Under the pieces are notes generated by a model. That model was not told the DNA's origin and made no database searches. It saw only the letters and a program-made list of their open reading frames with translations. Below are positions 61,830 to 62,502 of a stretch of 64,000 bases of DNA, piece after piece. Origin of the DNA: Eledone cirrhosa (taxonomy: Eukaryota). Where the stretch lies: contig OZ024742.1 in NCBI GenBank assembly GCA_964016885.1, positions 77,500,001 through 77,564,000 of the forward strand, written 5' to 3'. The position numbers and the translations under genes were made by a program. How positions within the stretch are numbered: position 1 is the first letter of the stretch; every line of letters begins with the position of its first letter.

Positions 61830-62502
61830 AATTTCATTTCTCACTCTTAGTACGGCTGATACTTAAATATAAGTATGTATACGTACATACATATATGTAT
61901 ACATACTACAGTAGTATGTATATACATACATACATGCACACATATATATATATGTACGTATTGTTTTACCGAAAATTTATTATATTGTTCGGTTTGTTTC
62001 TAAACAAACAGCACGAATTAAGCCGTACAGTGTTCGGCAACCATCGTTGCCCATTTGTTCAACACCGACAAAGAAACGATGGACGAGTTTCAAGCTTATT
62101 AGCTGTCATCAGCACCGTATACCTTCCTGTCAGTCGATTGATCGTTCGAAAGTATATACATTCCTTATGCATATTAACGGCTGAGCAGCCTAATTTTCAT
62201 ATCAAGTGATTTAGTCGACCGGGCATACCGAAAACGAAAAACGGAAAAAATGAAATATTATTTCCCACTCTTAGTACGACTGATACTTAAATATAAGTAT
62301 GTATACGTACATACATATATGTATACAGACGGACAGTAGTATGTATTTATATGTATGTATATACATACATTTATTATAACGTTCATTATAATAAATGTTC
62401 GGTAAACCGATACGTACATATATATATGTGTGTGCATGTAAGTATGTATATACATACTACTGCACGTATGTATACATATAGGTATGTACGTATACATACT
62501 TA
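61830..62502 (-). mobile_element. Third member of the 422-bp retrozyme-like family (424-bp period, with inverted tail); HHR at 62077-62117
   Basis: Direct repeat at 61843/62267. Reverse complement reads cggtg CTGATGA c-agct-aata-agct-t GAAA ctcg TC catcg. Confidence 0.88.

What the first reader, a model, noticed from the sequence alone, without database searches (positions are those of the whole stretch)
61830..62502. Diverged family member shows compensatory changes in the ribozyme and a shared 3' junction
Stem I reads cgttg/cagcg (13.6 kb), cggtg/catcg (62.1 kb) and tattg/caata (25.7 kb). Stem II reads agct/agct versus gatgt/acatc. The core is invariant apart from the free position N7. Pairing is kept while sequence changes, which suggests selection on RNA structure. 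The plus-oriented pieces at 14660 and 62502 both end at ...catactta|(TA)n, and 26003 ends in the homologous region. This points to a fixed internal priming site about 210 nt from the cleavage site that anneals to nicked TA repeats (inference).
Basis: partly seen in the sequence, partly recalled or inferred. Interest (0 to 1): 0.75.

Follow-up and report, generated by a model that had tools for sequence, protein, structure and literature searches.

The report
Penelope-copied hammerhead repeat, two start sites
This is an old, partly decayed copy of a very abundant small repeat with a self-cutting-RNA (hammerhead) motif, whose mirror-image insertions end at two fixed sites, almost always one of each, which likely marks copying by a Penelope-type jumping-gene enzyme working from both sides of a DNA cut.

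Summary
The ribozyme motif and its covariation are real, but the junction story is incomplete. The 62-kb element belongs to a 417-484-nt type I hammerhead repeat family with 40,333 exact cores in the genome. Seven of 13 pairs change on both sides, though these trace to about three subfamily splits. The core is invariant at 15 of 15 positions versus 180 of 359 elsewhere. This copy is about 90% to its consensus, and a rare change abolishes the predicted dimer helix III. 3' ends are not at one site but two: short (hairpin loop, +211 to +232) and long (56-72 nt further). Head-to-head insertions carry one of each in 30 of 31 and 28 of 28 cases, including this locus (61815 long, 62500 short). This is the Penelope 'tail', matching two published internal RT start sites. 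Overlap with (TA)n is only 0-5 nt, so annealing probably does not choose the site. Arms run through the cleavage site; a circular template is not shown. The partner element was not identified. The scan already reported this family on other DNA of this genome.

The parts
61791..61815 (.). (TA)n target, left side
61815..62370 (-). Left arm, about 1.3 units of subfamily B; its 3' end is the LONG end, 267 nt past the cleavage site
   Evidence: 509 of 561 columns match the B consensus
61815..61876 (-). 'Tail': segment between the short and long end sites, present on this arm only
   Evidence: inner boundary approximate
62076..62118 (-). Type I hammerhead motif: stem I 62118-62113 with 62081-62076, core from 62112, predicted cut after 62082; helix III palindrome broken (ACUCGU)
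62371..62383 (.). Fold-back junction between the arms (short inverted copy of the start of the right arm)
   Evidence: read from the sequence
62384..62500 (+). Right arm, unit positions about 93-211, no ribozyme; its 3' end is the SHORT end in the CUUA-UAUU-UAAG hairpin (ambiguous to 62505)
   Evidence: 118 of 127 columns match B
62501..62608 (.). (TA)n target, right side
13278..14660 (+). Young subfamily A array, 3.3 units of 422 nt, three hammerheads, short end; no opposite arm found
25019..26003 (.). Young subfamily C insertion (470-nt unit): minus arm 25019-25602 with long end, plus arm 25601-26003 with short end

Best explanation
The locus is one old insertion of a non-coding hammerhead repeat family (a non-LTR retrozyme) whose two mirror-image arms end at two fixed sites, and it was likely copied by the reverse transcriptase/GIY-YIG endonuclease of a Penelope-like element. 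Shown: family, covariation between subfamilies, head-to-head arms, two 3' end sites used one per arm, TA targets, scattered 5' ends, and the same short-plus-long ends in intact Penelope-like elements of this genome. Inferred steps: (1) The unit is transcribed as a multimer; young copies would self-cleave as dimers through the ACUAGU palindrome, and monomers may be circularised. (2) A Penelope protein, probably a dimer, cuts both strands of (TA)n. (3) One DNA end primes cDNA in the small hairpin loop (short site) and the other 56-72 nt downstream (long site); the protein sets the position and 0-5 nt of U/A pairing sets the register. (4) Both cDNAs run through the cleavage junction, so the template is uncut multimer or re-ligated circle. 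(5) They stop at scattered points and are joined to each other, often at short overlaps or hairpins. The 62-kb copy itself is probably a dead ribozyme.
For: 108 of 135 distinct 3' ends fall in two windows covering 5-7% of the unit; 92 of those 108 are followed by (TA)4 or more within 8 nt. Short-plus-long pairing holds in 30 of 31 classed head-to-head pairs and 28 of 28 in an independent list from the first 67 Mb of contig C1. Forward-strand genome counts for C-type units are 881 short, 1,235 long and 1 at an AT-rich control site. An intact 821-codon Hydra-type element is short-plus-long in 4 of 4 loci where both ends were found, of 12 examined. Only 4 of 152 arm 5' ends lie near the cleavage site, p=0.45, and 22 of 28 C-type insertions exceed 600 nt while two cut monomers allow about 520 (interiors not inspected). 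Published: two internal RT start sites bounding the tail, both strands cut and extended, unprocessed RNA as main substrate (PMC11167929); tail on one end only, inverted copies, TA bias (10.1101/2021.04.23.441226, PMC8557442).
Against: No autonomous partner was found: the tail region shows no similarity to 9 autonomous terminal repeats tested (z at most 1.7, versus 11 for A against C), and a profile search of the fetched Penelope loci found only family copies. 27 of 135 ends fall outside both windows, and 16 of 47 pairs had an unclassed end. 54 of 152 arms had no opposite arm within 45 nt. One pair is short-short (L087). Cleavage and transcription were not shown; subfamily B has a GUU site and a C-A mismatch at 10.1-11.1. 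Arm lengths within an insertion are uncorrelated (rho 0.10, 49 pairs).
Confidence: 0.8

Rival explanations
1. One reading: one fixed priming site about 210 nt from the cut, chosen by base-pairing of the RNA with a nicked TA repeat.
For: All four end clusters sit at or near local maxima of TA-compatible sequence: 5 nt at the A short site, 3 nt at both long sites. 15 of 18 A/B short ends that directly abut TA have a 5-nt overlap.
Against: There is a second, equally used site (56 long versus 52 short). C short ends overlap only 0-2 nt (15 of 15). The longer (UA)n runs in the middle of the unit give at most 10 of 89 A-type ends. The published Penelope starts at RNA not homologous to the cut DNA (PMC11167929).
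Confidence: 0.07
2. One target-primed arm only; the mirror arm arises by fold-back self-priming or from an antisense transcript, as proposed for Penelope inverted repeats (PMC3846280).
For: 15 of 49 arm junctions overlap by 5 nt or more, several at the unit's own hairpins; this locus has a small fold-back at 62371-62383.
Against: It does not by itself explain why the second arm ends precisely at the other fixed site next to TA. 34 of 49 junctions have under 5 nt overlap or a gap, and the two arms usually begin at unrelated unit positions.
Confidence: 0.08
3. The units are decayed terminal repeats of a Penelope element that spread as DNA satellites; the ribozyme is a passenger and the stem changes are drift.
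For: A 30-unit array has recurring interspersed variants, as local DNA expansion would give. Ribozyme mutants did not affect insertion in vitro (PMC11167929), and 8 of 9 frog retrozyme dimers did not cleave in vitro (10.64898/2026.07.22.740005).
Against: Dispersed copies with fixed ends; core 15 of 15 invariant across five subfamilies that are only 59-91% identical; no coding neighbour or autonomous repeat homologous to the unit was found. DNA expansion explains some long arrays, not the family.
Confidence: 0.05

Closest known systems
Metazoan non-LTR retrozymes (PMC7229834, passages read; preprint 10.64898/2026.07.22.740005, parts 1-3 of 5 read)
   Same: Non-coding tandem units with one type I hammerhead each, palindromic helix III, a U-U mismatch at the base of stem II as in axolotl HHR_Amex2, tens of thousands of copies, proposed dependence on Penelope-like elements.
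   Different: Units of 417-484 nt are at or above the upper end of the 150-450 nt range. Copies are mostly head-to-head pairs in (TA)n with two fixed ends, which the parts read do not describe for retrozymes. The preprint links retrozymes to terminal repeats by homology; here no homologous autonomous repeat was found. RNA and circles untested.
Endonuclease-bearing Penelope-like elements: Poseidon PAc (PMC11167929, parts 1-2 of 4 read), Hydra and Neptune clades (PMC8557442, sections 11 and 15 and passages), Adineta Penelope (PMC3846280, passages)
   Same: Partial tandems, inverted 5'-truncated copy, tail on one end only, two internal start sites downstream of a hammerhead, start in a stem-loop, AT-rich or (TA)n targets.
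   Different: No reading frame; tail 56-72 nt rather than 30-40; start sites 211-300 nt past the cleavage site rather than about 85-92 in PAc; the short site is a U/A-rich loop, not AC-rich.
Minimal Penelope hammerheads (PMC4209133, part 1 of 4 read)
   Same: Short palindromic helix III implying dimer cleavage; opposite-strand pairs 100-700 bp apart already noted in Schistosoma.
   Different: This motif keeps a 2-bp helix III with a 2-nt loop, 6-bp stem I and 4-5-bp stem II, so it is closer to the canonical metazoan type I form.

Membership tests
Type I hammerhead ribozyme | CUGANGA ... GAAA ... UH core with three helices | tested here: met
   Rfam gave no match at gathering score
Type I hammerhead ribozyme | Covarying stems I and II | tested here: met
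   7 of 13 pairs, score 0.281 versus 0.104 shuffled (0 of 500) and at most 0.109 slid; pair-count measures not above shuffles (79 and 121 of 500); few independent events
Type I hammerhead ribozyme | Stable helix III as monomer or dimer | tested here: met
   Family: ACUAGU self-duplex -4.8 kcal/mol. Not met for the 62.1-kb copy: +0.3, or -0.2 with an intact partner
Type I hammerhead ribozyme | Self-cleavage | not testable with these tools
   needs an in vitro assay
Non-LTR retrozyme | Non-coding tandem units, one hammerhead per unit, dispersed at high copy | tested here: met
   no Penelope protein match inside the window's three loci
Non-LTR retrozyme | At least two consecutive intact hammerheads (preprint's 'active' criterion) | tested here: met
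   Met at 13.3-14.7 kb (three); not met at the 62-kb locus (one, damaged)
Non-LTR retrozyme | Linear and circular monomer RNAs in tissue | not testable with these tools
   only assembled contigs were served
Penelope-mobilised element | Tail on one end only; head-to-head inverted arms; variable 5' truncation | tested here: met
Penelope-mobilised element | Target-site duplication | tested here: inconclusive
   mostly hidden in (TA)n; 2 of 31 pairs show plausible 5-nt and up to 13-nt duplications
Penelope-mobilised element | Terminal repeat homologous to an autonomous partner | tested here: not met
   none among 9 repeats tested or the fetched loci; the genome holds many more families, so the search is incomplete
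Autonomous Penelope-like element | RT plus GIY-YIG reading frame | tested here: not met
   absent from the unit; present elsewhere in the genome

The most novel reading that the evidence does not exclude
One Penelope protein dimer sits on a single circular 420-nt retrozyme RNA with one subunit at the hairpin loop and one at the end of the tail. Each is primed by one strand of a staggered cut in (TA)n and rolls round the circle, so the Penelope 'tail' is the fixed spacing of the two active sites. The RNA does this with no sequence homology to the host element's own repeat, and may carry its own octamer-TATA promoter.
Probability: 0.3. Interest if true: 0.75.

Novelty: new member of a known kind. 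Interest (0 to 1): 0.5.

Why it matters
Animal retrozymes are assumed to borrow Penelope enzymes, on grounds of co-occurrence and repeat homology. Here the insertion footprint itself says so: 58 of 59 classed two-armed insertions carry exactly one short and one long end. That near-strict pairing suggests the two published start sites are used in a coordinated way, one per DNA strand. It offers a 420-nt RNA and young intact enzymes in the same genome to test how Penelope tails and inverted repeats arise.

Tried and rejected
Rfam scan: no match. Single-RNA-template test: insertion-private variants present in all covering units were 0 in A (4 were in one unit only), 2 in C (50 in one unit only) and 1 in a mixed A/B set (100 in one unit only), with no A-to-G excess. 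Long arrays: one has 16 of 18 identical units, another 30 units with recurring variants; a circle is neither shown nor excluded. Pile-up of 5' ends at the cleavage site: none (12 of 164 arms dropped as low-complexity false matches; loci were chosen for holding the ribozyme, which biases one arm to be long). Heterodimeric unit in subfamily B: not systematic. Hydra-specific start signal: CT|TATATT is shared by A/B and the 821-codon Hydra element, but a Neptune-like repeat has CT|TATT too and alignments are at chance; partner clade left open. RNA polymerase III termination as the cause of the long end: rejected, the U-runs do not coincide with it across subfamilies. Sequencing runs: no RNA holder listed; two guessed RNA runs laid nothing; neither is evidence. 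R-scape was not available.

Full report
What is at the locus. The element runs from about 61815 to 62500 between two (TA)n runs. A minus-strand arm (61815-62370) holds one hammerhead motif: core from 62112, predicted cut after 62082. A short plus-strand arm (62384-62500) holds none. They meet at a small fold-back. The arms match a consensus built from related copies (subfamily B) at 509 of 561 and 118 of 127 columns. Typical B copies are 95% to consensus over the non-repetitive part, this one 90%.

The family. The window comes from a 3.0-Gb animal genome; earlier notes call it a cephalopod, which I did not test. The pattern CTGANGA-N12-18-GAAACTAGTH occurs 40,333 times against 6 for the reversed control. 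Six of 60 random 10-kb stretches held a clear insertion. Five subfamilies (A 422, B 417, D 484, C 470, C2 466 nt) align end to end at 59-91% identity. A and C are young (0.1% and 0.7% from consensus among top hits). Contigs of four runs labelled as other organisms also carry the unit, with the same stem I variants.

Covariation. I aligned 56 of 59 distinct ribozyme sequences from 184 copies, dropping 3 cut by junctions. Of 13 pairs, 7 change on both sides and 91.6% of cells pair. The covariation score is 0.281 against 0.104 for shuffles and at most 0.109 for slid partners, but the two measures that count pairs or types do not beat shuffles. The changes trace to about three splits: A/B/D versus C, A versus B/D (U-G to G-U), and C versus C2 (A-U to U-A). 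Stronger evidence of selection is that 15 of 15 core and helix III positions are invariant across five subfamilies, against 180 of 359 elsewhere. The 62.1-kb copy has ACUCGU where the family has the palindrome ACUAGU, which removes the predicted dimer helix (0.3 versus -4.8 kcal/mol). Its stem I change is inherited from its subfamily.

Two 3' ends, not one. Of 135 distinct 3' ends, 52 are short, 56 long and 27 elsewhere. The sites are homologous across subfamilies although their distance from the cut differs. The short site lies in or beside the loop of a small predicted hairpin (CUUA-N4-6-UAAG); the long site follows a second hairpin in a U-rich stretch. Among 47 head-to-head pairs, 31 had both ends classed and 30 were short-plus-long. 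These loci were top BLAST hits, so I repeated the test with genome-wide junction patterns for C-type units. Forward counts were 881 short, 1,235 long and 1 control (reverse counts are inflated by overlapping matches). All 28 head-to-head pairs in the first 67 Mb of contig C1 were short-plus-long. This locus and the 25-26 kb locus both follow the rule.

Annealing. Overlap between element continuation and the TA flank is 0-5 nt, mostly 5 (A short), 3 (long) and 1-2 (C short) (measured against A and C references). The ends favour locally TA-compatible bases, but the longer (UA)n runs within the unit account for at most 10 of 89 A-type ends. I infer that protein positioning chooses the site and pairing only trims the register.

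Template. Arm 5' ends are spread over the unit, with 4 of 152 near the cleavage site, and most insertions are longer than two cut monomers would allow. So the enzyme reads through the ribozyme site: uncut multimer or re-ligated circle. My tests could not separate these. Arm junctions overlap by 5 nt or more in 15 of 49, by under 5 nt either way in 23, and have gaps in 11.

The machinery. The genome holds intact or near-intact Penelope-like frames: a 938-codon RT plus GIY-YIG frame (labelled Neptune-like from its zinc-finger linker, partly from recall) and a young 821-codon family. The latter carries the DKT, CxCX5C, CxxC and CxH motifs listed for the Hydra clade, with RW in place of RWK, and ends short-plus-long in 4 of 4 loci with both ends. 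None of 9 autonomous repeats resembles the family's tail, so the partner is unknown.

Comparison with print. Two internal start sites bounding the tail, cutting and extension of both strands, and a predicted dimer are published for the anole element (PMC11167929). Tail on one end, inverted copies and TA bias are published for Penelope-like elements generally. Retrozymes are described in PMC7229834 (passages) and tied to Penelope repeats by homology in a 2026 preprint. In seven library searches and the parts read I found no report of this family or of paired short and long ends in retrozymes. The library lacks most subscription papers and Repbase, and I read no supplements; the preprint's tables may list such families. 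Earlier notes of this scan report the same family and footprint elsewhere in this genome, notably e1-8665316; I had the two-end pattern before reading them.

Verdict. A real feature, a new member of a known kind. The informative result is the near-strict pairing of two start sites. Penelope-type two-ended copying about 0.8; single circular template about 0.3; interest 0.5.

Noticed in passing
window 12983-13270: Inverted pair of terminal-repeat fragments matching the 938-codon Neptune-like element L181 (read by eye), with a U3-A8 variant hammerhead and its own short and long ends about 63 nt apart; the subfamily A array sits directly after it.
   Followed up: partly
window 62160-62205 (minus) and 13915-13965 (plus): An octamer-like ATGCAAAT (ATGCATAT in A; ATGAAAAT in the 62-kb copy) lies exactly 41 nt before a TATA-like box in all five subfamilies: a possible internal promoter.
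   Followed up: partly
window 18137-19920: 5'-truncated Penelope-like element (88-95% to the L191/L195 family, labelled Poseidon-like from recall) with a hammerhead core at 19771, right after the 3.5-kb TA-rich array.
   Followed up: partly
window 22761-23697 and 47893-50566: Decayed Hydra-type Penelope-like fragments; oversized hammerhead-like cores at 47893 and 54893, and a related motif at about 61270.
   Followed up: partly
window 33288: Another hammerhead variant (GAAA-GUAC-UU) belonging to the terminal repeat of the L184 Penelope-like family, ending at a TA run.
   Followed up: partly
window 62605-63150 and 63300-63470: Two further head-to-head inverted repeats between TA runs, from other families.
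   Followed up: no
L160 4661-5237, L192 3092-3652, window 62250-62300: Single arms whose internal and terminal tail copies carry marks of different subfamilies, suggesting template switching or recombination; this weighs against a single pure template in those cases.
   Followed up: partly
L243-L244 (G000:C1:5738085-5752723): A 14.6-kb two-armed insertion with about 30 units on one arm, still short-plus-long; recurring variants suggest later local expansion.
   Followed up: partly
L175 7787-8070: A more distant hammerhead repeat family with repeated octamer-like motifs upstream of its core, weakly matching this family's profile (E 0.0006).
   Followed up: no
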